Positions 14,562 to 26,635 of a stretch of 64,000 nucleotides of DNA are shown here, in pieces. Position 1 is the first letter of the stretch. Each line of letters opens with the position of its first letter. Source of the stretch: Candidatus Latescibacterota bacterium (lineage in GTDB: Bacteria > Latescibacterota > UBA2968 > GCA-2709665); NCBI GenBank assembly GCA_965203805.1, contig OZ241917.1, positions 512,001 to 576,000 on the forward strand, read 5' to 3'. The translations under genes were made by a program, and so were the position numbers. A model generated the notes under the pieces. It had not been told where the DNA came from. It searched no databases and saw only the letters and a program-made list of their open reading frames with translations.

Positions 14562-15719
14562 ATGTCAAAACGCGACTATTATGAGGTTCTCGGGCTGCAA
14601 CGGGAAGCATCCGAGAACGAGATTAAGAAGGCCTATCGCAAACAGGCGATGAAATATCATCCGGATCGGAACGCGGGCGATGAGGAGGCCGCGGCCAGAT
14701 TCAAGGAGGCCGCCGAGGCGTACGAGGTCCTGAGCGATACCCAGAAACGCCGGGTGTACGACCAGTATGGGCATGCGGGCCTGGGCGGCCCGTTCCAGGG
14801 CGGTGGATTTCAATGGTCCGACTTCACGCATGCTACCGATTTCGAAGATATTTTCTCCAACCTCGATGACGTGTTCGGCGGCGGGATTCTGGGCGACCTG
14901 TTCGGTCGTCGCGGCGGCCGGCGGGGCCCTCAGCGCGGGGAAGACCTCCGCATTCCGCTCCGGCTGACCCTCGAGGAGATCGCGTCCGGCGTCCAGAAGA
15001 AGATCCGGTTCGCCCGGATGGACCGGTGCGACACATGCGGTGGAACCGGGGCACGGACCGGGTCGGCCGCCAGGACCTGCAGCGTCTGCAACGGCATGGG
15101 GCAGGTGCGACAGGCCACGCGATCGCTTTTCGGGCAGTTCGTGAACGTCACCACGTGCCCACAGTGCAACGGAGAGGGCAAGGTGATCGGCGACCGCTGT
15201 TTCGACTGTGGGGGCGACGGCAGGGCGAAGAAGACCGTCAGTCTGTCCGTGAACATACCGGCGGGCGTCACCGACGGTAACTACATCCCGTTGCGGGGGC
15301 AGGGCAGCGTCGGCCCACGGGACGGCGAAGCCGGCGATTGCATGGTGCTGATCGAAGAGGAAGAGCACGAGTATTTCGAACGGCATGGCAACGACATTCT
15401 CTATGAGTTGCCCATCAGTTTCAGCCAGGCGGCGCTGGGCGCCGAGGTCACTGTACCCACGTTGAGCAGCAGGGCGGAAATGAAGATTCCCCCCGGGACG
15501 CAGTCCGGTCAGGTTTTTCGCCTGAAGGGCAAGGGCATCCCCGAGTTGAACGGATACAGGACCGGAGACCAGCTCGTGCGCGTGATGGTCTGGACCCCTG
15601 CCCGTCTCAATGAGGAAGAGAAGGCGCTGTTCCGGCAGCTCGCCGAGCTCGAGAATATCCAGCCGCCGGAGGGCGGCAAGGGTATATTCGAACGCATGAA
15701 GGAGGCGTTCGGCGCTTAA
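14562..15719 (+). CDS. dnaJ: molecular chaperone DnaJ
   Basis: J domain with HPD, G/F-rich region and four CxxCxGxG zinc repeats. Confidence 0.97.
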
Positions 15720-15782
15720 GCGGGCGCCGGACACGCAGCCGGGGGAAGTCGGACCGGCCGTCATCGGATCGTCGATTCAAAT

Positions 15783-17219
15783 TCAGGTCAGCCCTGGAAA
15801 CAGGGGCTGGCCCTTTTTGATCTCAACCTTCGAGAAACCGGCTTCAATTCGTTCAGCCGTATCCGGAAGAAAGGGTCTGAGGACCCACGAAGTGGCGCGG
15901 ACCGAACCGACCCAGGCCGAGAGGTGTTGTTCGAGCTTCCCGGCCCTTTGCCCTTTCAGAAGTTCCCATGGGCGTACCGCGTCGATTTCACGGTTCATGT
16001 CGTCCACACGCCGCCAGACCGCCTTGAGGGCCCCGGCGAAGTCGAAACGGTCCAGCGCTTCGTTAACCTGGTGTGGAACCCGGAAGTCGGGTATCTCCGC
16101 CTGACCGTAACCGCACCGTTCGCAGAGAGATTCGAGTCGGCGCACGAGGTTGCCCAGGCCGTTCGCCAGGTCGGAGTTGTAGACCTCCCGGAGCCGCGCT
16201 TCGGAAACGTCGCCGTCCTCACCGGAACGAACGGCGCGGAGCAGGTAATATCGTACGGCGTCAGGTCCGTATCGCCGGATCAGCGGGAATGGATCCACGG
16301 CGTTGTCCAGCGACTTGCCGATCTTCCGGCCTTCCACGGTCAGATGGCCGTGGACGAAGATGGCCCGGGGCAGCGGCAGGCCGGCTGAGAGCAGCATGGC
16401 GGGCCAGTAGACGGCGTGGAATTTGAGGATGTCCTTGCCGATGACGTGGACCTTGTCAGGGCAGTCACGCCAATAGCGCTTGAATTCTCCACTGTCCCGG
16501 CCGTAGCCGAGTCCCGTGAGGTAGTTGGTCAGAGCGTCGAACCAGACGTATACGACCTGGGCCGGGTCGCCGGGCACGGGCACGCCCCATCCGCCGGACC
16601 GACTCCGATTGCGGGAGATGCTGAAGTCCCTCAGACCCTGCCTGATGAATCCCAGCGCTTCGTTTCGCCGTGTCTCCGGGAGAATGCGGAGCTTTCCGGA
16701 CGCGATCAGACCCTCCAGTTCTGCCTGATAGGCGGATAAGCGAAAGAAGTGGTTCGTTTCTTCGACGGATTCGGGTTCGACACCGTGTAGAGGGCATCGA
16801 CCGTCCGAAAGGTCCCGCTCCAACAGGAAGTCCTCGCAGCCCACGCAATAGAGCCCTCGGTACTGATTGCGGAAGATGTCCTCCTGCCGGCAGGCCGACC
16901 AGAATCGGGAGGCGCCGGTAATGTGGGTGTCCGTCGAGGAGCGGATGAAGCGGTCGTACGAGATGTCGAGGGCTTCGGCGAGGTTCTTGAAGACAGCGGC
17001 ATTCCGTTCGCACAGTTGACGCGGCGTCAGGCCTTCCCTTGCGGCGGCCTGCACGTTCTTGAACGCATTTTCGTCGGTTCCGGTCAGGAAGAACGTGTCG
17101 TGGCCCAGAAGCCGGCGCCACCTGGCGATCGCGTCGGCCTGTACCAGCTCCAGTGCGAAGCCCAGGTGGGGGCGGGCGTTGACGTAAGGGATGGAAGTCG
17201 ACACATAGAAAGTCTTCAT
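15783..17219 (-). CDS. metG: methionine--tRNA ligase, compact one-knuckle form with variant HLGF/KIGKS motifs
   Basis: IPYVN..PHLGF, TGTDE, YCxxCE..CPLH knuckle, FSISR..GWG, YVWFDAL.NY, IGKDILKFH..YWPA, KIGKS.DN and DLAN.LGNL. No C-terminal dimerization domain. Confidence 0.92.
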   Translation of the reverse strand: MKTFYVSTSIPYVNARPHLGFALELVQADAIARWRRLLGHDTFFLTGTDENAFKNVQAAAREGLTPRQLCERNAAVFKNLAEALDISYDRFIRSSTDTHITGASRFWSACRQEDIFRNQYRGLYCVGCEDFLLERDLSDGRCPLHGVEPESVEETNHFFRLSAYQAELEGLIASGKLRILPETRRNEALGFIRQGLRDFSISRNRSRSGGWGVPVPGDPAQVVYVWFDALTNYLTGLGYGRDSGEFKRYWRDCPDKVHVIGKDILKFHAVYWPAMLLSAGLPLPRAIFVHGHLTVEGRKIGKSLDNAVDPFPLIRRYGPDAVRYYLLRAVRSGEDGDVSEARLREVYNSDLANGLGNLVRRLESLCERCGYGQAEIPDFRVPHQVNEALDRFDFAGALKAVWRRVDDMNREIDAVRPWELLKGQRAGKLEQHLSAWVGSVRATSWVLRPFLPDTAERIEAGFSKVEIKKGQPLFPGLT

Positions 17220-17345
17220 GGCATGTCCTTTCCAATTGGGTTCCGGCTATTGAAGATGCGATGGGATTCCGCAAAGAAAGTGACATGCACATGAAAGAGA
17301 CGCCGCCCGCACTGTGAGATATATGGCTGAACACGCTGTCTTCCT

Positions 17346-17386
17346 CAACAAATGAAACCCACCGCCGATTCATCGGCGGTGGGTTT
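17346..17386 (-). terminator. attenuator terminator (3:4 hairpin) in the metG leader
   Basis: Minus strand AAACCCACCGCCGAT-GA-ATCGGCGGTGGGTTT followed by CATTTGTTG, about 135 nt before the metG ATG. Confidence 0.8.
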
Positions 17387-17414
17387 GTCGGTTCGAATCT
17401 ACGTGTGATTCAGA

Positions 17415-17573
17415 TCAGATCAGGGGATGTTTCGCCGCCGAAGTTCCGCTGGTACAGGTGGCCGGCATGTACATCGAAAGTTCGACGGCGTCCGCCTGCG
17501 TCGCGTCGTTCGGTACGGCTGAGGATCGCCGGGATATTCGCGATCCGTCATTTGAGCATTGAACAGACTTCAT
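17415..17573 (-). CDS. putative metG attenuation leader peptide (52 aa, Met-Tyr-Met control codons)
   Basis: RBS AGGAG then ATG. Translation MKSVQCSNDGSRISRRSSAVPNDATQADAVELSMYMPATCTSGTSAAKHPLI*. It is below the ORF-track cutoff. Confidence 0.65.
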   Translation of the reverse strand: MKSVQCSNDGSRISRRSSAVPNDATQADAVELSMYMPATCTSGTSAAKHPLI

Positions 17574-17600
17574 TTCAGTCTCCTGTATTCAGTACGAGAG

Positions 17601-17629
17601 AATATAGAATGCGGGCCACGAATTGTCAA
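17601..17629 (-). promoter_or_regulatory. sigma70 promoter of the leader-metG transcript
   Basis: Minus strand TTGACA-17nt-TATATT. Confidence 0.7.
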
Positions 17630-17645
17630 GCTATCCGGTTTGACG

Positions 17646-17665
17646 CCTGCCTGCCGGCAGGCAGG
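17646..17665. repeat. REP-like perfect palindrome CCTGCCTGCCGGCAGGCAGG
   Basis: 20-bp perfect inverted repeat; a related GCCTGCC..GGCAGGC arm pair occurs at 28915-28939. Confidence 0.7.
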
Positions 17666-17847
17666 GCCTCCTCAGGTTGACCGTCAGGTCCCCGGATTTT
17701 ATCTTACCCTTGTCCTTTTCGCGGTATGGGCTTACATTGACGCAGACGGGAAGACCGGCGGCTGGCACACCGGTTGTCCGATTTCGCGCCTCTACCGGGC
17801 GTAAATTCACTCGTGTGAACACATTGTTAAGGAATAAGGGTTCGGCT

Positions 17848-18897
17848 GTGCTATACTGGCTGGGAGAACGATTTGCCGATGTCTACGGGCCTCTACGGCT
17901 CTTGACGTCCTACCTGTTTCTGGCAGTGCTCGGCACGGCGCTGGCGGGACTGTTTACATGGCGGCTGCTTCCCGGATTGTGGATGCGGCTGCCCAAAGAC
18001 AGGGGCCGCGCGTACGCAGTCGAGAACGAGCAGAGCCACGGAAAGCCCGTTGGCGCGGGCGTGATCTTCATCCCCATCTATCTGGTCGTGTGTTTCCTGA
18101 TTCTGCCGCCGGGTTCCCAGTACTGGCAGATTCTGGGCTGTCTGTTTCTCGCCATGCTGGCCGGGTTTCTTGACGATCGAAGTCCGGGAGGGTGGGGCGA
18201 GTACCGCGTGGGAGCCATCGACCTGGGCATTTCCCTGCTTGGCGCAATGGTCATCTGCCAGTTGGAATCCGTCGAGCTCTGGCTGCCGCTGATGAAGACG
18301 CCGGTTCTGGTTCATCCGTGGATATTCGTGCCCGGGGCCGCGTTATTGATCTGGGTTTCAATCAATGCCACCAACTGTACGGATGGCGTGGACGGGCTGT
18401 CGGGCAGCCTGAGTGTCCTCGCCTTCATCTATCTGGGCGTCATTCTATACGGGATTGTGGGGCACACGGATATTGCCAGGTATCTTCTTGTGCCGCACTA
18501 TCCCGACGGCGCGGTATGGGCCCTGTTCTCATTTGCCATGGCCGGGTGCCTGGCCGGTTATCTGTGGTACAACGCCTATCCCAGCGCCGTGCTGATGGGT
18601 GACGCGGGGTCCCGGCCGATGGGCTTCCTGCTCGGAATACTCGTTCTGGCGTGCGGCAATCCGTTTCTGATCGTCGTCGTTGCCAGCGTGGTCCTGGTGA
18701 ACGGGGCCACGGGACTGTTGAAAGTGGCGCTGCTGCGGTTTCTGAAGATCGGGATTTTCCAGACGGTTCGATATCCTCTGCACGATCATTTCCGGCACAA
18801 GAACGGCTGGTCGAATACGCACGTGCTCGTCCGGTTTATTCTGCTCCAGGCGTTTGTAACGCCGATTCTGCTGGTTCTGCTGGTTAAGATACGATAG
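17848..18897 (+). CDS. mraY: phospho-N-acetylmuramoyl-pentapeptide transferase (MraY family), stand-alone and divergent
   Basis: About 10 TM segments with GFLDD, NATNCTDGVDGL, WYNAYP..VLMGDAGS and PLHDHF..GWS motifs. Confidence 0.8.
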   Translation: MLYWLGERFADVYGPLRLLTSYLFLAVLGTALAGLFTWRLLPGLWMRLPKDRGRAYAVENEQSHGKPVGAGVIFIPIYLVVCFLILPPGSQYWQILGCLFLAMLAGFLDDRSPGGWGEYRVGAIDLGISLLGAMVICQLESVELWLPLMKTPVLVHPWIFVPGAALLIWVSINATNCTDGVDGLSGSLSVLAFIYLGVILYGIVGHTDIARYLLVPHYPDGAVWALFSFAMAGCLAGYLWYNAYPSAVLMGDAGSRPMGFLLGILVLACGNPFLIVVVASVVLVNGATGLLKVALLRFLKIGIFQTVRYPLHDHFRHKNGWSNTHVLVRFILLQAFVTPILLVLLVKIR

Positions 18898-18940
18898 TGA
18901 TCGGTCACCAAAAAGTGTAGGTGTCAGGCATCTAAGAGTC

Positions 18941-19189
18941 GGGGAGACGTTAGACGTAAGAGGGGAGAGGAAATGAGTGCCCTATGGTTTTTCTGGTCGT
19001 TACGGTAGCGGTAAATTAGCAGGCACGGTTTATGTGACAAACACTGCTGTAAATGCCTTCATCTACCGTCTACCCTCTTACGTCTCACCGGTTTTATTGC
19101 CCCGTCCAGTTTCATTTTGTGCTGGAGGCATAAAGGAAAAACCAAACGGGCAAGGACGTTATCTACCGTCTACCGTCTCACGTCTAACC
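18941..19189. repeat. heptamer-periodic repeat blocks in inverted arrangement
   Basis: GAGACGT-TAGACGT-AAGAGGG-GAGAGG (18941-18970) against TCTACCG-TCTACCC-TCTTACG-TCTCACC (19062-19089) and TCTACCG-TCTACCG-TCTCACG-TCTAACC (19162-19189). Confidence 0.6.
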
Positions 19190-22362: not shown

Positions 22363-24798
22363 TCATTGCTCCTCTTCGCGTTGCGTCGGGCTGACGTATT
22401 CCGTCGTCGCAGCTGGTTTACCGTCCGGTTTTCCGATGCGGTAGCCGACCCCGTGTTCCGTGAAAATGTACCGTGGATCGTCGGCTTCGTCCCCCAGTTT
22501 GCGGCGCAGTCTCTTGACGAGCGAGCGGACGTGCCGCAAATCACGCCCGCCGCGCGTGCCCCAGATGCGGCGCAACAGCGCCTCGTGCGTCACCACTCGG
22601 CCGGAGCTGACGGTGAGTTCCTGCAGCATCCTGTACTCGTTCGCGGTCAATTGTACGCCCCGACCGCCTACCGTCACGCGCCGTTCCTGGTAGTCCAGCG
22701 TCAGTTCCTTATACACGTAGGGCACGTCGGGTTCCGACCGGACCGGTCCGGCTTCCTTACGTAGAGCGGCGTTGATTCTTGCAACGAGTTCCGTCGGGGA
22801 AAAGGGCTTGACGATATAGTCGGACGCGCCCAATTCGAATGCCCGTGCGATGTTGTCTTTCCGACCGTATCCGGACAGGACGATCACAGGCACCCTGTCG
22901 ACTTTAACCACCTCCTCCATCAGTTCAAAGCCGTCGGCGCCGGGCAGGACCAGGTCCAGCAGCACCAGGCAGGGACTGTGCGATCCGATGAGTTCCGCGA
23001 CTTCGTCGGGGTCGGCCGTAACAACGGGCGTATAGCCCGCTTTCGTTAGGATCTCGCGAACGGATTTGAGCGTCTGCGGGTCGTCGTCCACCGCCAGTAT
23101 TCTCCCTCCCTTTTCGTCAATATCGGGCGAATGCTCAGGTTTGTTCGCGTCCTTGCGGGCCGCCGCTGCCGGTACTTCTTCCGCCACCGGAACGGTGAAC
23201 GTGACCCTCGTACCCCGGCCGGGCCCGTCGCTTTCGGCCCATATCCGTCCGCCGTGGGCTTCTACGATGCCCTTGCAGATTGCCAGGCCCAGCCCCGTAT
23301 CATGGGTCCTGCGTTCGCCGTCGATCCGCGAAAACTTCCTGAACAGATGCGGCAGAAGATCCGCTGTCACGCCCGAGCCTTCATCGGTAACGGAAATCAC
23401 AACGTGGAAGTCTTCGCGAACCGCGGTGAGGCGGATGGCAGAGGACGCGTCGGAGTATCGCGCGGCGTTCGTCAGGAGGTTGTTCAAAACCTGGACGATC
23501 CGGCGCCTGTCGGCCAAGACCCAGGGCAATTCCGGCGGAATGTCGATCTCGATATTATTACCGCCCCCGCCGCTTAGAAACGTGCTCCTTGCCTGGTCGA
23601 CGATGGCAGCCGGATCCGTCGGGTCGGGCGTGACCGAGAGCGTGCCGGTTTCGATCTGCGCCACGTCCAGCAGGTCGCTGATCATGTCCCGCATGCGATC
23701 CGCCTGGTGGTCGATGATACGGTAGAACTGCCGCGCTTCGGCGGGGTCGAGGACCGACGAATCGCCCAGCAAGGTCGTGGTAGAGCCCTTAATGGACGTC
23801 AGCGGTACCCGGAGTTCGTGGCTGACCATACCCAGGAACTCGGCGCGAAGGCGCTCAAGGTCCTCCAGGGGCGTCATGTCCTGCACCGTCACGACAACGG
23901 ACTCGATTTCGCCATCCTCGGAACGAATGGGCGTGGCATTGACCAGCGCGGTGACGGACCGACCGTCGGGTGTACGGAGGACGATCTCTTCCGCGCGGAC
24001 CGTCTCCCCTGTGCGCAGCAACCGCGCCAGGGGGTACTCTTTAAGAGAGACTTCCCGGCCGTCGGCGCGCTGGATGGTCAGCACCTCCAGAAGTTGCTCC
24101 TCCGGTCGGGCCGGCGTGCGCAGGCCTCCCACAATCCTTCTCGCCTCGCGGTTGAACGTCAGCGGCGCACCGGTCCTGGCGTCGAAGACCACGACCCCTA
24201 CGGGTGAGGTGTCGATCAGGGTCTCCAGGTCGAGCCTTGCCTTCTGCTCGTCCCGGTGCCGGCGTGCGTTGGCAATGACCAGCGCCGCCTGAGCGGCGAA
24301 CGTCAACAGGGTCTCTTCGTCTTCGGCCGTGAAGACCTCTCCTCCTTCCTTTTCGCAGAGATAGAAAGTCCCGACGCTCTGGCGGCGGTAGCGGATCGGT
24401 GCTGCCAAAAGCGCCGGGGCGGGGCTCAGAGGTACCTGGGGGCGGAACTCAGGCAGGCCCTTGGACCTGGTGTGGCTGTGGAGGTCCCGCAGCCGAAGCG
24501 GCTCCGTTATTTTGGAGAAGTAGTCGAAGAGCCTGTTCCTCTCGGGCCGGAACCACAACCGCCTGGACTGATAAGGCGTAAACCCTGAGGTGATGCAGAC
24601 CTGCACCTGTCCCGCATCGTCCAGCAGCGCCATCATGCCGTACCTCGCATCGGTCAGCGATCTCGCATTGTCCACGGCTTCCTGCAGTACGGCGTCGAAT
24701 TCGAGACTCTCGTTGATGCGAAGGCTGGCCTCGCTCAGTTTTTTCAGGCGGTCCCTCAGGGCAGCCGCTTCCGGATTGCGCTCGTCGGATTTCTTCAC
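22363..24798 (-). CDS. cytoplasmic hybrid sensor kinase-response regulator (GAF-PAS-HisKA-HATPase-REC-OmpR winged helix)
   Basis: SHELRVPLTSI, NLLTNA, DEGSG, GLGLAI..HGG; receiver VDDD..LLDLVLP..KPF; C-terminal LT..EY.ML..L..GRVVT..L..IWG and LRRKLG..YI.T..GVGY. No TM segments. Confidence 0.9.
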   Translation of the reverse strand: MKKSDERNPEAAALRDRLKKLSEASLRINESLEFDAVLQEAVDNARSLTDARYGMMALLDDAGQVQVCITSGFTPYQSRRLWFRPERNRLFDYFSKITEPLRLRDLHSHTRSKGLPEFRPQVPLSPAPALLAAPIRYRRQSVGTFYLCEKEGGEVFTAEDEETLLTFAAQAALVIANARRHRDEQKARLDLETLIDTSPVGVVVFDARTGAPLTFNREARRIVGGLRTPARPEEQLLEVLTIQRADGREVSLKEYPLARLLRTGETVRAEEIVLRTPDGRSVTALVNATPIRSEDGEIESVVVTVQDMTPLEDLERLRAEFLGMVSHELRVPLTSIKGSTTTLLGDSSVLDPAEARQFYRIIDHQADRMRDMISDLLDVAQIETGTLSVTPDPTDPAAIVDQARSTFLSGGGGNNIEIDIPPELPWVLADRRRIVQVLNNLLTNAARYSDASSAIRLTAVREDFHVVISVTDEGSGVTADLLPHLFRKFSRIDGERRTHDTGLGLAICKGIVEAHGGRIWAESDGPGRGTRVTFTVPVAEEVPAAAARKDANKPEHSPDIDEKGGRILAVDDDPQTLKSVREILTKAGYTPVVTADPDEVAELIGSHSPCLVLLDLVLPGADGFELMEEVVKVDRVPVIVLSGYGRKDNIARAFELGASDYIVKPFSPTELVARINAALRKEAGPVRSEPDVPYVYKELTLDYQERRVTVGGRGVQLTANEYRMLQELTVSSGRVVTHEALLRRIWGTRGGRDLRHVRSLVKRLRRKLGDEADDPRYIFTEHGVGYRIGKPDGKPAATTEYVSPTQREEEQ

Positions 24799-25010
24799 GT
24801 TCAGACCTCACTGATTTCGAGCTACGTCTTCGGCCGGGGATTGTCCGGCCCGAGCCGGTGCCTCGGGTACGGCCCCATCAAATCTGTCGAATTGTGGAAA
24901 TATCACGATAATAGCATAAAAAAACGACCCAATCTCACAGATTTGTTATAATTTTTTCGTTATATTATATGCAACATAAGACAGAATTTTTAATAATCCA
25001 ACGGATTCTT

Positions 25011-25751
25011 TTGCTGGCAGCCCAGACGCAACTGTCCAAGTCCACGGTTCAGCGCGTGTGGAAAGCGTTTGGTCTACAGCCGCACCGACAAAAACACTTC
25101 AAGCTGTCCAATGATCCGTTCTTTGTCGAGAAGGTACGTGACATTGTCGGCCTGTATCTGAACCCTCCCGACAACGCGATGGTATTATGCGTTGACGAAA
25201 AGAGTCAGATCCAGGCATTGGAACGAACGCAGCCGATATTGCCTTTGGGGTTGGGCTATGTGGAAGGGGTCACCCACAATTATATCCGGCACGGCACCAC
25301 GACCTTGTTCGCCGCGCTGGAGGTCGCTTCCGGCAAGGTGCTGGCCCAATGCAAACCCCGACATCGACACCAGGAATTTTTACAATTCCTCAAATATATC
25401 GACCAAAACGTCCCGAAGGACCTTGACATTCATCTCGTCGTCGACAACTACGCCACGCACAAGCACGAAAAAATCAAACGCTGGATCGCAGCCAGGCCCC
25501 GATACCACGTTCACTATACACCGACCTATGCGTCCTGGCTCAACCAGGTCGAGATCTGGTTCGGCATCATTACCCAGAAAGCCATCCGACGCGGGACCTT
25601 CAAAAAGGTGAAAGACCTCATCGCCAACATTCAGGATTTCACCAACCATTACAACACCAACTCACGACCGTTCGTCTGGACCGCCACCGCAGAATCGATC
25701 CTTGACAAGATTACTAGACTTTTTGAACTAATTCATGGGACAAGACACTAG
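25011..25751 (+). mobile_element. IS630-family element, 5'-truncated (DDE domain and right end only)
   Basis: VDEKSQIQAL, YIRHGTTTLFAAL, VVDNYATH and SWLNQVEIWF. Ends at ..GGGACAAGACACTAG, a typical IS630 terminus with TA. The N-terminal HTH region and left end are missing. Confidence 0.85.
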
Positions 25752-25760
25752 GAGACACTC

Positions 25761-25995
25761 GATGTACTGGGAAGATATGAAACAACAGTTTCGCCAGAGC
25801 GGCAGCACATTTGATAAGGATGTAGAGGCAATCAAACTTATGTCTTTAGACAATGAGCCTGAGATCGTTGTTCTCGTGCTACACTATCCCAGTGAACGCA
25901 ACAGCAAGCCCTGGGCATTTCGGCTAAAGCGAGAAGACTTATCAAAGCTGGTGCATCAATTATTGATGAAGATTGGAGAGGGGGACAGATCGTGA
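25761..25995 (+). CDS. low-GC hypothetical ORF, possibly the 3' remnant of an IS-interrupted gene
   Basis: Open frame directly after the IS end (..MYWEDMKQQ..KIGEGDRS*) with AT-rich codon usage. Confidence 0.35.
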
Positions 25996-26635
25996 AACAG
26001 GAATTAGAACTAATTGACAACAACCTCTGGAATATTCCACCGTCCCAGGGGTTTTATTCGCATTTTCAGGAATATTTATTTTTCTTATATAGGGACTTGA
26101 ACCTACTTATAGCATCCTGTATCTTCATGGTAAGCCGAGCGGCCTGATTTCATCCGAATTGGGAGACCTCTCCAATTTGAAATACCAGGAAATCTATAAT
26201 CATGAAACCCTGACGGGTAGCGCTCGCCTCCAGCCTTACGAAACTCACGGAAATGGCGCGTTGCTATTCTGAAGCGCTGACCTGTACTCGCCCACGGATA
26301 CGGGATTTCAGAGGTGGCTGCAGGACATTGATAATGTTCGTCGCGCGAGCCATAATGAACCCACGAACAGCTCGGGACGGCATATTGAGCGCAGGGGACC
26401 GCTTACCCCGTGTGGCATGACGTGCGGTAAGGCTTTTCTCTAAGAATCGTTGGTTTGCCGACGGACAGGCGCGGAATGGCACAATCAGGCCAGACAGAAG
26501 TGAAGGCCGTTTGGGGAGAGAGATACCGGAGCGGCTTTGCGGCCGATGACCATGCCCGGTTATTTTGCCTGGCCAGGTCCGGCGACTACTGCGCGCTCAA
26601 GCGAAAGCGGCGGGACTGCATGCCGCAGTGCGCCA

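What the first reader, a model, noticed from the sequence alone, without database searches (positions are those of the whole stretch)
15783..17219. MetRS with altered class I signature motifs (HLGF, KIGKS): candidate inducible, inhibitor-resistant second copy
Seen: the HIGH motif reads HLGF (second His to Phe) and KMSKS reads KIGKS. The protein is a compact 478 aa with one Zn knuckle and no C-terminal dimerization domain, lies convergent to dnaJ, and has its own attenuated promoter. Established: auxiliary aaRS paralogs confer antibiotic resistance. Mupirocin-resistant IleRS2 includes variants with altered HIGH motifs, and the indolmycin-resistant TrpRS of Streptomyces coelicolor is induced by ribosome-mediated attenuation. 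Inference: this may be an auxiliary MetRS induced when the housekeeping MetRS is inhibited, which would point to an unknown natural MetRS-targeting antibiotic.
Basis: partly seen in the sequence, partly recalled or inferred. Interest (0 to 1): 0.8.

Follow-up and report, generated by a model that had tools for sequence, protein, structure and literature searches.

The report
Back-up MetRS behind a methionine-sensing leader
This is a second, horizontally acquired methionyl-tRNA synthetase whose odd signature motifs are normal for its family, and it appears to be switched on by short upstream reading frames rich in methionine codons, a kind of control I could not find described for methionine.

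Summary
ORF 15783-17219(-) encodes a 478-aa type-1 MetRS with HLGF and KIGKS, one Cys3His knuckle and no C-terminal domain.

The genome also has a canonical 634-aa MetRS (HLGH, KMSKS, tRNA_bind domain), so this is a second copy.

The altered motifs are not special to it. H-x-G-F with K-I-S/G-K-S is the rule in a large family of short MetRS. In 9 of 9 small CPR-like genomes tested, that enzyme is the only MetRS. The motifs therefore do not point to inhibitor resistance, and no biosynthetic cluster lies nearby.

- A sigma-70-like promoter is followed by a 52-codon leader ORF with a conserved Met-codon cluster and a strong terminator.
- A leader segment can pair with the terminator's 5' arm.
- This genome has a second leader whose Met codons pair with the MetRS ribosome-binding site and start codon.
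- Unrelated Met-cluster leaders precede family members in Rhizobium, Agrobacterium, Sinorhizobium and Streptomyces plasmids, Myxococcota, Chloroflexota and Actinomycetota (20 of 24 non-CPR loci; 4 of 24 antisense).

Best reading: a back-up MetRS induced when Met-tRNA charging falls. A resistance role is untested.

The parts
15783..17219 (-). Auxiliary short type-1 methionyl-tRNA synthetase, 478 aa
   Evidence: ORF. PF09334 E 1.2e-95. TIGR00398 410.8 bits, above the 336.35 cut-off. PDB 2csx E 2e-110. Model pLDDT 92.2 with TM 0.85-0.92 to solved MetRS1 structures. dN/dS 0.18-0.25 within the genus and its nearest genus.
17157..17168 (-). Codons 18-21, HLGF (variant of the HIGH motif)
   Evidence: H18 and G20 are invariant in 40 family members.
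16311..16325 (-). Codons 299-303, KIGKS (variant of the KMSKS motif)
   Evidence: K299, I300, K302 and S303 are invariant in 40 family members.
16785..16847 (-). Single zinc knuckle, C125-x2-C128 ... C142-x2-H145
   Evidence: Read from the sequence. All four positions are invariant in alignments A2 and A3. Zinc binding is inferred, not shown.
17225..17233 (-). Ribosome-binding site GGAAAGGAC of the MetRS gene
   Evidence: Conserved in the same-genus loci. Paired with the leader-2 Met-codon segment in the predicted fold.
17220..17346 (-). Leader 2: SD plus GTG start (17334-17332), Met codons M-C-M at 17292-17284. The reading frame runs across the MetRS start in another frame.
   Evidence: In 5 of 5 genomes that have this piece (G000, G013, G011, G015, G017), the minimum-free-energy fold pairs the Met-codon segment with the RBS and AUG of MetRS.
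17355..17386 (-). Intrinsic-terminator hairpin (14 bp). In this genome the following T run is interrupted.
   Evidence: RNAalifold finds 13 pairs, nearly invariant in 14 genomes, with one compensatory change. Hairpin alone -23 to -30 kcal/mol.
17433..17442 (-). Region 2. It can pair either with region 1 or with the 5' arm of the terminator (antiterminator).
17481..17490 (-). Region 1, 5' strand of the leader hairpin that encloses the Met codons (coordinates derived by hand)
   Evidence: Full-length fold of the G000 leader. The coordinates are counted back from the Met codons located.
17466..17474 (-). Regulatory Met codons of leader 1. They read M-Y-M here and M-x-M-M in 13 of 14 genus genomes.
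17415..17573 (-). Leader 1 ORF, 52 codons plus stop, with an AGGAG Shine-Dalgarno sequence
   Evidence: It is 52 codons long in 12 of 14 genus genomes.
17601..17629 (-). Sigma-70-like promoter TTGACA-17-TATATT
   Evidence: The -35 block is present in 14 of 14 genus loci.
14562..15719 (+). dnaJ (context), convergent neighbour and last gene of hrcA-grpE-dnaJ
   Evidence: ORF translations, named from their sequence and not scanned. The order dnaJ - auxiliary MetRS - GT4 gene is kept in 14 of 14 genus loci.

Best explanation
The ORF encodes an active auxiliary methionyl-tRNA synthetase. It belongs to a short (about 470-480 aa) type-1 family whose normal signature is H-x-G-F, T-D-E-N and K-I-S/G-K-S.

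Origin. The family is the only MetRS found in the small CPR-like genomes tested. An ancestor of this Latescibacterota family acquired a copy horizontally. The copy has since been inherited at a fixed locus in the genus, alongside the canonical long MetRS.

Control. The gene appears to be held off unless charged elongator Met-tRNA runs short, through two devices in series.
1. Transcription attenuation. A 52-codon leader ORF carries a Met-codon cluster. A ribosome stalled there should free a downstream segment to pair with the 5' arm of a strong terminator, so that RNA polymerase reads through.
2. Translational attenuation (in this genome and a few relatives). The Met codons of a second leader are base-paired with the MetRS ribosome-binding site and start codon. 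A ribosome stalled on them should expose the start.

Net effect: a back-up MetRS induced by methionine starvation or by failure or inhibition of the housekeeping enzyme.

Shown here: gene, fold, paralogy, distribution, the leader ORFs, the terminator and the complementarities.
Inferred: enzyme activity, stalling, read-through, and what the back-up is for.
For: Enzyme:
- Family scores lie above cut-off.
- The whole length aligns to solved MetRS1 structures, and the model matches them at TM 0.85-0.92.
- The anticodon-helix and PW positions are invariant in the family.
- dN/dS is 0.18-0.25 among the five closer genomes, against 0.09-0.12 for the canonical copy.
- H-x-G-F enzymes are the sole MetRS in 9 of 9 small genomes tested.

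Paralogy and origin:
- A canonical copy is present.
- The short copy is found in 13 of 14 other genomes of the genus (12 intact, 1 split). It is in 3 of 7 genomes of other genera of the family. It is in 1 of 19 genomes of the sister family, and that copy has an in-frame TGA.
- The Latescibacterota copies form one clade (SH-aLRT 96), nested among CPR-like rows and apart from the canonical copies (SH-aLRT 99).
- Synteny is kept in 14 of 14 genus loci.

Leader 1:
- Promoter, SD and leader ORF are present in 14 of 14 genus loci. The ORF is 52 codons in 12 of 14 and carries M-x-M-M in 13 of 14.
- In 11 of 14 loci the terminator ends 22-30 nt before the MetRS ATG. That leaves no room for a separate promoter.
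- With the Met region masked and the 3' arm absent, 14 of 14 folds pair region 2 with the terminator's 5' arm.
- That helix is paired in 88% of cells, against 24-67% when the partners are slid.

Leader 2: the Met segment pairs with the RBS and AUG in 5 of 5 genomes that have it.

Independent lineages:
- Unrelated leaders with Met clusters plus terminators occur in G016 (four Met in seven codons).
- They also occur in Rhizobium, Agrobacterium, an alphaproteobacterium, Myxococcales and Caldilineaceae. In each, a region-2 segment is complementary to that lineage's own terminator arm.
- Three plasmid-borne copies have them too.

Survey:
- 12 of 57 loci have at least 3 Met in 7 codons upstream. Controls gave 2 of 57 on the antisense strand, 1-3 of 57 in four control regions, and a mean of 1.28 (maximum 3) in shuffles.
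- In non-CPR clades, 20 of 24 loci have a small upstream ORF with at least 2 Met in 5 codons, against 4 of 24 antisense. In CPR-like loci the figures are 4 of 33 against 6 of 33.
Against: - No experiment and no usable expression data back this. RNA-library contigs only show that parts of the gene and leader are present in one metatranscriptome. One contig extends upstream of the predicted promoter.
- The antiterminator helix within the genus is supported by conservation and complementarity only. Covariation is no better than shuffles (132 of 500 reach the observed value).
- In the window genome itself, leader 1 has only two Met codons (M-Y-M-P) and the T run after the hairpin is interrupted. 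Its transcriptional arm may therefore be weak.
- The leader-2 frame has no conserved end. It runs 119-956 nt into the MetRS ORF, so its translation is uncertain.
- The auxiliary copy is dispensable. It is absent in G001, split in G011 and carries a stop in G037.
- The small genomes are MAGs of unstated completeness, so "sole copy" could be overstated for some of them.
Confidence: 0.68

Rival explanations
1. The auxiliary MetRS is kept because it is insensitive to a natural MetRS inhibitor or to a toxic methionine analogue. The attenuator switches it on when the sensitive housekeeping enzyme is blocked. This concerns the selective benefit and is compatible with the mechanism in the best explanation.
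For: - It is a second copy with a remodelled active site. F at the fourth HIGH position goes with T-D-E-N in 121 of 130 parsed sequences.
- It would be induced by a charging failure.
- The same family sits as a second copy in 24 of 31 large genomes tested across several phyla (9 of 11, 15 of 20).
- It also sits on large plasmids, one of them conjugative. That pattern fits a mobile accessory trait.
- Precedents: an altered HIGH motif gives up to 1000-fold mupirocin resistance in IleRS2 (PMC10485003, abstract read). An auxiliary antibiotic-resistant TrpRS is regulated by ribosome-mediated attenuation (Vecchione and Sello 2010; only the title was seen, in the reference list of PMC4787780).
- The organism's DNA turns up in sponge, coral and marine metagenomes. 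That such habitats are rich in natural products is my recollection.
Against: - The motif states are family-wide and occur in sole-copy, hence housekeeping, enzymes.
- Met leaders also precede the gene where it is the only MetRS found (G061, G063).
- No biosynthetic genes appear among the ORFs surveyed between 5066 and 28550 here. None appear around three plasmid-borne copies either.
- I know of no natural product that targets MetRS (recalled, not searched).
- The copy is lost or broken in some relatives.
Confidence: 0.15
2. The upstream ORFs are not sensors. Leader 1 with its hairpin is an independent small-protein or small-RNA gene, and the MetRS gene is expressed constitutively or from another signal.
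For: - In the window genome, 135 nt separate the hairpin from the MetRS start. A promoter could hide there.
- Leader 1 is long for a leader peptide (52 codons) and its length is conserved.
- There is no significant covariation for the antiterminator.
Against: - In 11 of 14 genus genomes the terminator abuts the RBS, 22-30 nt from the ATG. The MetRS there can only be transcribed by read-through.
- The N-terminal half of the peptide is variable, and is replaced outright in G013 and G011, while the Met cluster is kept.
- Unrelated leaders in other phyla share only the Met cluster, the terminator and the matching region 2.
Confidence: 0.08
3. The protein is a MetRS-like paralog that no longer charges tRNA-Met for translation. 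It could be a pseudo-enzyme or an enzyme acting on another acceptor.
For: - The second His of HIGH is lost, and the conserved TDEH reads TDEN.
- The full-length equivalog models score below their cut-offs (NF008900: 478.8 bits against 598).
- Constraint is about twice as relaxed as on the canonical copy.
Against: - The same motif states occur in enzymes that are the only MetRS of their genome.
- The anticodon-binding and catalytic Lys/Ser positions are invariant.
- The fold is complete.
- A Met-tRNA-sensing leader makes sense only for a Met-tRNA-producing enzyme.
Confidence: 0.05

Closest known systems
Escherichia coli pheST attenuator (pheM leader peptide) and the trp/his/leu-type leader-peptide attenuators
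   Same: The anatomy matches: a promoter, a short translated leader with a cluster of codons for the cognate amino acid, three alternative pairings (1:2, 2:3, 3:4) and an intrinsic terminator in front of the gene. In pheST the controlled gene is itself an aminoacyl-tRNA synthetase. The description of pheST is recalled; the anatomy here comes.
   Different: - The sensed amino acid is methionine. Five full-text searches found no leader-peptide attenuator for it, and Rfam found no family.
- The leader is long (52 codons).
- This genome adds a second, translational stage.
Streptomyces coelicolor trpRS1 (auxiliary, indolmycin-resistant TrpRS under ribosome-mediated attenuation)
   Same: An auxiliary synthetase beside a housekeeping one, gated by a leader that senses charging of the cognate tRNA. 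For this paper only the title was seen (reference list of PMC4787780). The details are recalled.
   Different: Resistance is demonstrated there and is untested here. Here the leader type also occurs in genomes where the enzyme is the only MetRS.
Bacillus subtilis thrZ/thrS (silent back-up ThrRS induced when charging fails)
   Same: A normally silent second synthetase induced by starvation for the amino acid or by shortage of the main enzyme. Recalled; the thrS/thrZ paper appears in the reference list seen.
   Different: thrZ uses T-box antitermination by uncharged tRNA. No T-box or any other Rfam family is found here. The sensor here is a translating ribosome.
IleRS2 with altered HIGH motif (mupirocin hyper-resistance)
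   Same: A class I synthetase paralog with a non-canonical HIGH motif (PMC10485003, abstract read).
   Different: There the altered motif is tied by experiment to resistance. Here H-x-G-F is the ancestral norm of a whole family, including sole-copy enzymes.
Solved type-1 MetRS (Aquifex aeolicus 2csx, Thermus thermophilus 1a8h, Brucella melitensis 4dlp, Mycobacterium 2x1l/6ax8)
   Same: The architecture is the same: a Rossmann core, a CP domain with one knuckle, the KMSKS domain and a helical anticodon-binding domain. Sequence E-values are 2e-110 to 1e-100 and TM scores 0.85-0.92.
   Different: - Identity is 37-39%.
- The fourth HIGH residue is F rather than H. TDEN(A) replaces TDEH(G). KIGKS replaces KMSKS.

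Membership tests
Methionyl-tRNA synthetase, type 1 (TIGR00398 / PF09334) | Profile score above the curated cut-off | tested here: met
   TIGR00398 scores 410.8 bits against 336.35. PF09334 scores 321 bits against 20.1. The full-length equivalog models that include C-terminal parts fall below their cut-offs (NF008900: 478.8 against 598).
Methionyl-tRNA synthetase, type 1 (TIGR00398 / PF09334) | Canonical class I HIGH signature (H-x-G-H) | tested here: not met
   It reads HLGF. The first His and the Gly are kept; the fourth residue is Phe. This is the family norm: 112 of 121 sequences, 3 of them unparsed. It also occurs in sole-copy enzymes, so it does not argue against activity.
Methionyl-tRNA synthetase, type 1 (TIGR00398 / PF09334) | KMSKS loop with both Lys and the final Ser | tested here: met
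   It reads KIGKS. K299, K302 and S303 are invariant in 40 relatives. Only the second and third positions differ.
Methionyl-tRNA synthetase, type 1 (TIGR00398 / PF09334) | Complete fold: Rossmann core, CP knuckle, anticodon-binding helical domain | tested here: met
   Model pLDDT 92.2 and pTM 0.92. TM 0.85-0.92 to T. thermophilus, Mycobacterium, Brucella and S. aureus MetRS.
Methionyl-tRNA synthetase, type 1 (TIGR00398 / PF09334) | Anticodon-recognition positions (Asn/Arg helix, Pro-Trp) | tested here: met
   N353, N357, R361, P417 and W418 are invariant in A2 and A3 and align with 2csx. Which residues contact the anticodon is recalled, not tested.
Methionyl-tRNA synthetase, type 1 (TIGR00398 / PF09334) | Aminoacylation of tRNA-Met | not testable with these tools
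   Inferred from sole-copy relatives and from purifying selection.
Leader-peptide (ribosome-mediated) transcription attenuator | Short upstream ORF with Shine-Dalgarno sequence, downstream of a promoter | tested here: met
   AGGAG plus ATG at 17584-17571 and a promoter at 17629-17601. Present in 14 of 14 genus loci.
Leader-peptide (ribosome-mediated) transcription attenuator | Cluster of codons for the sensed amino acid | tested here: met
   M-x-M-M in 13 of 14 genus leaders and M-Y-M in the window genome. Four Met in seven codons in G016. MMM in the Rhizobiaceae leaders. Enrichment against controls.
Leader-peptide (ribosome-mediated) transcription attenuator | Intrinsic terminator between the leader and the regulated gene | tested here: met
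   Hairpin at 17386-17355, -23 to -30 kcal/mol. It abuts the RBS in 11 of 14 genus loci. In the window genome the T run is interrupted.
Leader-peptide (ribosome-mediated) transcription attenuator | Alternative antiterminator pairing with the terminator's 5' arm, exposed by a ribosome stalled at the regulatory codons | tested here: inconclusive
   Predicted in 14 of 14 constrained folds. 88% of cells are paired, against 24-67% when slid, but covariation is no better than shuffles (132 of 500). Different lineages have different terminators, each with a matching region 2.
Leader-peptide (ribosome-mediated) transcription attenuator | Read-through responds to charged tRNA in vivo | not testable with these tools
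   RNA contigs were uninformative.
T-box riboswitch control of aaRS genes | Match to the T-box covariance model | tested here: not met
   Across 15000-19000 at E up to 1, Rfam gave no T-box or other credible family; the only two listed matches were chance-level miRNA hits on the terminator hairpin. Six other lineages' loci gave no match at all at E up to 0.1.
Antibiotic-resistant auxiliary aaRS (IleRS2, TrpRS1, self-immunity copies) | Second copy beside a housekeeping enzyme | tested here: met
Antibiotic-resistant auxiliary aaRS (IleRS2, TrpRS1, self-immunity copies) | Linkage to a biosynthetic cluster or to a known inhibitor | tested here: not met
   The neighbours are guaA, glnA, hrcA-grpE-dnaJ, a GT4 transferase, an M20 peptidase, GGT, a histidine kinase and GH5. 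Three plasmid contexts also show no cluster.
Antibiotic-resistant auxiliary aaRS (IleRS2, TrpRS1, self-immunity copies) | Lower inhibitor sensitivity than the housekeeping enzyme | not testable with these tools
   Needs kinetics.

The most novel reading that the evidence does not exclude
The short H-x-G-F MetRS is a mobile resistance or tolerance determinant against a still unknown natural MetRS inhibitor or toxic methionine analogue. It has spread from CPR-type lineages into large-genome bacteria (Latescibacterota, Rhizobiaceae, Myxococcota, Actinomycetota and their plasmids). Everywhere it is armed by a methionine-codon leader peptide that fires when the sensitive housekeeping enzyme is blocked. 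Even without resistance, the leaders would be the first methionine-specific ribosome-mediated attenuators. I put that weaker reading at about 0.55.
Probability: 0.13. Interest if true: 0.85.

Novelty: new variant of a known kind. Interest (0 to 1): 0.58.

Why it matters
Leader-peptide attenuation is a textbook mechanism for Trp, His, Leu, Thr, Ile/Val and Phe. I found no described case for methionine, whose codon is also the start codon.

If these leaders work as predicted, they report the charging of elongator tRNA-Met directly. They would control a MetRS gene in many phyla, including culturable, genetically tractable Rhizobium and Streptomyces strains, so the idea is easy to test.

The work also corrects a tempting inference. 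H-x-G-F and K-I-S/G-K-S in MetRS are a normal family signature, coupled to T-D-E-N, and not a mark of resistance. Natural enzymes that lack the second His of HIGH are useful for understanding how class I synthetases stabilise the transition state.

Finally, the same short MetRS recurs as a regulated second copy in 24 of 31 large genomes tested. That raises an open question: what does a back-up MetRS buy the cell?

Tried and rejected
- Rfam. Region 15000-19000 gave two chance-level miRNA hits on the hairpin. Six loci from other lineages gave none. So there is no T-box, SAM riboswitch or other known leader family.
- RNA evidence. One metatranscriptome (X20) holds contigs over 15821-16246, 17510-17645 and 17952-18148. 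These are contigs, so they show no ends, strand or level. The leader contig extends upstream of the predicted promoter. This gives no support either way for attenuation.
- Genome-wide scan of G000 for other Met-cluster leaders followed by terminators. Of 735 clusters, 23 had hairpins and none was convincing. The scan's threshold (3 ATG in 7 codons) also misses the window's own two-Met leaders, so it says little.
- Upstream of the canonical MetRS (the gap between holB and metG) there is no Met-cluster ORF.
- Low-zinc back-up, by analogy with the cyanobacterial ThrRS T2 (PMC4787780, passages read). Rejected as a lead: here it is the auxiliary copy that keeps the Cys3His knuckle, while the canonical copy has lost the first Cys pair.
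- Heat-shock link through the neighbouring hrcA-grpE-dnaJ. The genes are convergent. The adjacency holds only within the genus (14 of 14) and not in G015, G016 or G017. I treat it as synteny, not co-regulation.
- Literature. Five full-text searches for a methionine leader-peptide attenuator or a regulated second MetRS found nothing relevant. One search found only the MetRS1/MetRS2 drug-target papers. The library lacks most subscription journals, and supplements were closed, so absence from print is not proven.
- Vecchione and Sello 2010 could not be opened.
Full report
**The observation**

The ORF at 15783..17219 on the minus strand is real and encodes 478 residues. Residues 18-21 read HLGF where class I synthetases have H-x-G-H, and residues 299-303 read KIGKS in place of KMSKS.

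The protein matches PF09334 (E 1.2e-95). It passes the metG domain model TIGR00398 (410.8 bits against a cut-off of 336.35). It aligns over residues 1-456 with Aquifex aeolicus MetRS (2csx, E 2e-110) and with other type-1 MetRS structures. An AlphaFold model built on 40 relatives has mean pLDDT 92.2. It superposes on the Thermus, Mycobacterium, Brucella and Staphylococcus enzymes at TM 0.85-0.92.

The protein has one knuckle (C125, C128, C142, H145) and stops after the anticodon-binding domain. It is convergent with dnaJ.

**It is a second copy**

The same single-contig genome (5.87 Mb) holds another MetRS at C1:317500-318903, about 194 kb before the window. That one is a 634-aa ORF after a holB-like gene (named from its translation), with HLGH, KMSKS and a C-terminal tRNA_bind domain. 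The two share 41% identity.

Distribution among 40 relatives:
- All have the long copy.
- The short copy is present in 13 of 14 other genomes of the genus: 12 intact and one split into two frames (G011). It is absent from G001.
- It is present in 3 of 7 genomes of other genera of the family.
- In the sister family it appears in 1 of 19 genomes, at 49% identity and with an in-frame TGA.

Within the genus it always sits between dnaJ and a GT4 glycosyltransferase gene (14 of 14 loci).

Among the five closer genomes compared (four of the genus and G015), dN/dS is 0.18-0.25 for the short copy and 0.09-0.12 for the long copy. The short copy is thus under purifying selection that is about twice as relaxed.

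**The motifs are a family trait, not a peculiarity**

- The best 120 database relatives (53-96% identity, 466-520 aa) carry source labels such as Latescibacteria, Handelsmanbacteria, WWE3, Saccharibacteria, Hydrogenedentes and FCB group. Counting the query, 112 of 121 read H-x-G-F, 6 read H-x-G-H and 3 were unparsed. For the second motif, 77 read KISKS and 38 KIGKS.
- In 80 loci from named genomes, H or F at the fourth HIGH position and M, I or L plus S or G in the KMSKS loop occur in all combinations. Of the 57 loci that could be parsed, 24 have F and 33 have H.
- F goes with T-D-E-N instead of T-D-E-H in 121 of 130 parsed sequences. This suggests a coupled remodelling of the active site.
- Most important, in 9 of 9 small CPR-like genomes (0.5-1.2 Mb) that carry an H-x-G-F enzyme, it is the only hit above the metG cut-off. 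Such enzymes must therefore be competent housekeeping synthetases.

The step from altered motifs to inhibitor resistance does not hold.

**Origin**

In a maximum-likelihood tree of 97 rows (IQ-TREE quick search, LG+G4, SH-aLRT only), most canonical copies fall on one side (support 99). The two long-branch Myxococcota copies are misplaced.

The Latescibacterota short copies form one clade (support 96). Its branching follows the genera. It is sister to a Chloroflexota row and a Myxococcota row (support 99) and lies among CPR-like rows. This fits one horizontal acquisition by an ancestor of the family, followed by vertical descent and occasional loss.

The same family is a second copy in 9 of 11 and 15 of 20 large genomes tested. 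These include Rhizobium, Agrobacterium, other Alphaproteobacteria, Myxococcota, Chloroflexota, Actinomycetota and a Rokubacteria MAG. It also lies on large rhizobial and Streptomyces plasmids, one of them conjugative.

**The leader**

Reading upstream on the minus strand, the window shows these features:
- a TTGACA-17-TATATT promoter (17629-17601);
- an AGGAG Shine-Dalgarno sequence and a 52-codon ORF (17573-17415) with Met codons at 17474-17466;
- a 14-bp GC-rich hairpin followed by T's (17386-17355);
- 135 nt further on, the MetRS start.

The unit is conserved in all 14 genus loci:
- The ORF is 52 codons long in 12 of 14.
- Its N-terminal half varies, and is replaced outright in two genomes.
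- Codons 33-36 read M-x-M-M in 13 of 14. The window genome reads M-Y-M-P.
- In 11 of 14 loci the terminator ends 22-30 nt before the MetRS ATG and abuts the ribosome-binding site. There the gene can only be transcribed by read-through.

RNAalifold predicts the terminator plus a helix between the Met-codon region and a downstream segment, region 2. When the Met region is masked, as under a stalled ribosome, and the 3' arm is not yet made, all 14 sequences fold region 2 onto the terminator's 5' arm.

That antiterminator is paired in 88% of cells, against 24-67% for slid controls. The sequences are too alike for covariation, however: 132 of 500 shuffles do as well. Within the genus the model rests on conservation, geometry and complementarity.

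**A second, translational stage**

The window genome and two others of the genus (G013, G011) carry an extra piece between the terminator and the MetRS start. Two other genera (G015, G017) have only this piece. It has its own Shine-Dalgarno sequence and start codon (GTG at 17334) and an M-C-M or M-R-M motif (17292-17284).

In 5 of 5 of these genomes, the minimum-free-energy fold pairs these Met codons and the bases after them with the MetRS ribosome-binding site and AUG. A ribosome stalled on the Met codons would melt that helix.

Two points weaken this. The frame has no conserved end and runs into the MetRS ORF, so its translation is an inference. In the window genome, leader 1 has only two Met codons and a broken T run, so this second stage may carry much of the control here.

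**Independent lineages give the stronger support**

G016, of the same family and with a MetRS 60% identical, has an unrelated 48-codon leader with four Met in seven codons. It has its own terminator and a region 2 that mimics that terminator's 3' arm.

Leaders found in other lineages:
- Chromosomal Rhizobium copies: MDNTVISTFVMMMPRS.
- Agrobacterium: MDRLFANATMMMLRS.
- A Rhizobium plasmid: MNRSLANATMMMPRS.
- A conjugative Sinorhizobium plasmid: MHTNPINVTMMMLRS.
- A Streptomyces plasmid: MITPSRQHRMMPRTRGC.
- Myxococcales, Caldilineaceae, Chloroflexota, Rokubacteria and several Actinomycetota have Met-cluster leaders of their own.

Most of these are followed by a hairpin with a T run. The scripted search found none in 3 of the 11 tested (L058, L092, L052), and one case (L061) was mis-specified. 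In the Rhizobium, Agrobacterium, alphaproteobacterial, Myxococcales and Caldilineaceae cases, the constrained fold again pairs an upstream segment with that lineage's own terminator arm.

Survey counts:
- 12 of 57 loci have at least three Met in seven codons upstream on the sense strand. Controls gave 2 of 57 on the antisense strand, 1-3 of 57 in four control regions, and a mean of 1.28 (maximum 3) in shuffles.
- With a gentler criterion, 20 of 24 non-CPR loci have such a small ORF, against 4 of 24 antisense. In CPR-like loci the figures are 4 of 33 against 6 of 33.

The canonical MetRS of this genome has no such leader. Rfam has no family for any of these leaders. Five full-text searches found no description of a methionine leader-peptide attenuator. 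The library lacks most subscription journals, and supplements were closed.

**What it means**

The most economical reading is a back-up MetRS switched on when charged Met-tRNA runs short. It resembles E. coli pheST in mechanism, and B. subtilis thrZ or S. coelicolor trpRS1 in logic.

What the back-up is for remains open: inhibitor or analogue tolerance, better kinetics at low methionine, or something else.

Against the resistance reading:
- The motifs are family-wide.
- Leaders also occur where the enzyme is the only MetRS found (G061, G063).
- No biosynthetic cluster lies nearby, either here or around three plasmid copies.

For the resistance reading:
- Precedents exist (PMC10485003, abstract; PMC4787780, passages).
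- The active site is remodelled.
- The same family has repeatedly been acquired horizontally as a second copy, including on plasmids.

I put resistance at about 0.15, and the attenuator-controlled back-up enzyme at about 0.68.

**Caveats**

- Everything about regulation is prediction.
- The one metatranscriptome that holds parts of the locus is uninformative.
- The small genomes are MAGs, so "sole copy" may be overstated for some of them.
- The tree is a quick search without bootstraps and has compositional heterogeneity warnings.
- One row (L085/G070) comes from a genome flagged unpublished. No claim depends on it.

Noticed in passing
window about 24969-25751 (genome position 537585, minus strand): The genome-wide scan printed the same 34-residue out-of-frame ORF tail nine times, at nine places in the genome. 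One place lies in the window, in its lowest-GC stretch (0.548 at 24001-26000). It is probably a multi-copy insertion element.
   Followed up: no
L127 (G016 canonical MetRS): In genus g3 the long, supposedly canonical MetRS reads HLGT at the HIGH motif and is only about 509 aa. The fourth HIGH position therefore also varies outside the short family.
   Followed up: no
loci L067, L099, L093, L063, L102 (Actinomycetota and one Gemmatimonadota-labelled MAG): These leaders share an M-M pair followed by a Pro/Gly-rich tail, and four of the five end in G-V-R. This looks like a distinct actinobacterial class of Met leader.
   Followed up: partly
residues 49-52 of the protein (window about 17064-17075) and the family alignment: T-D-E-N replaces the usual T-D-E-H of type-1 MetRS. 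It co-occurs with F at the fourth HIGH position in 121 of 130 parsed sequences, which suggests compensating active-site changes.
   Followed up: partly
window 15786-15812 (+): A terminator-like hairpin with a T run, oriented for dnaJ, lies inside the last codons of the convergent MetRS gene.
   Followed up: no
upstream of the promoter in L016, L018, L019, L020, L026 and window about 17640-17700: A conserved block of about 60-100 bases, beginning with a GTCATCC(T/A)GAGGAGG-like motif, sits just upstream of the leader promoter in several genus genomes. In two metagenome strains, 20 bases are missing at 17645. It may be a small repeat element.
   Followed up: no
whole genome G000 and its genus: Closed, single-contig genomes of this genus score 5-9% contamination. 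That fits true duplicates of single-copy marker genes, such as this second synthetase, better than real contamination.
   Followed up: no
window 15200-18200: Near-identical or closely related DNA (about 98% over 3 kb in two runs) occurs in sponge, coral and marine metagenome runs from several studies. The organism is probably host-associated and marine.
   Followed up: partly
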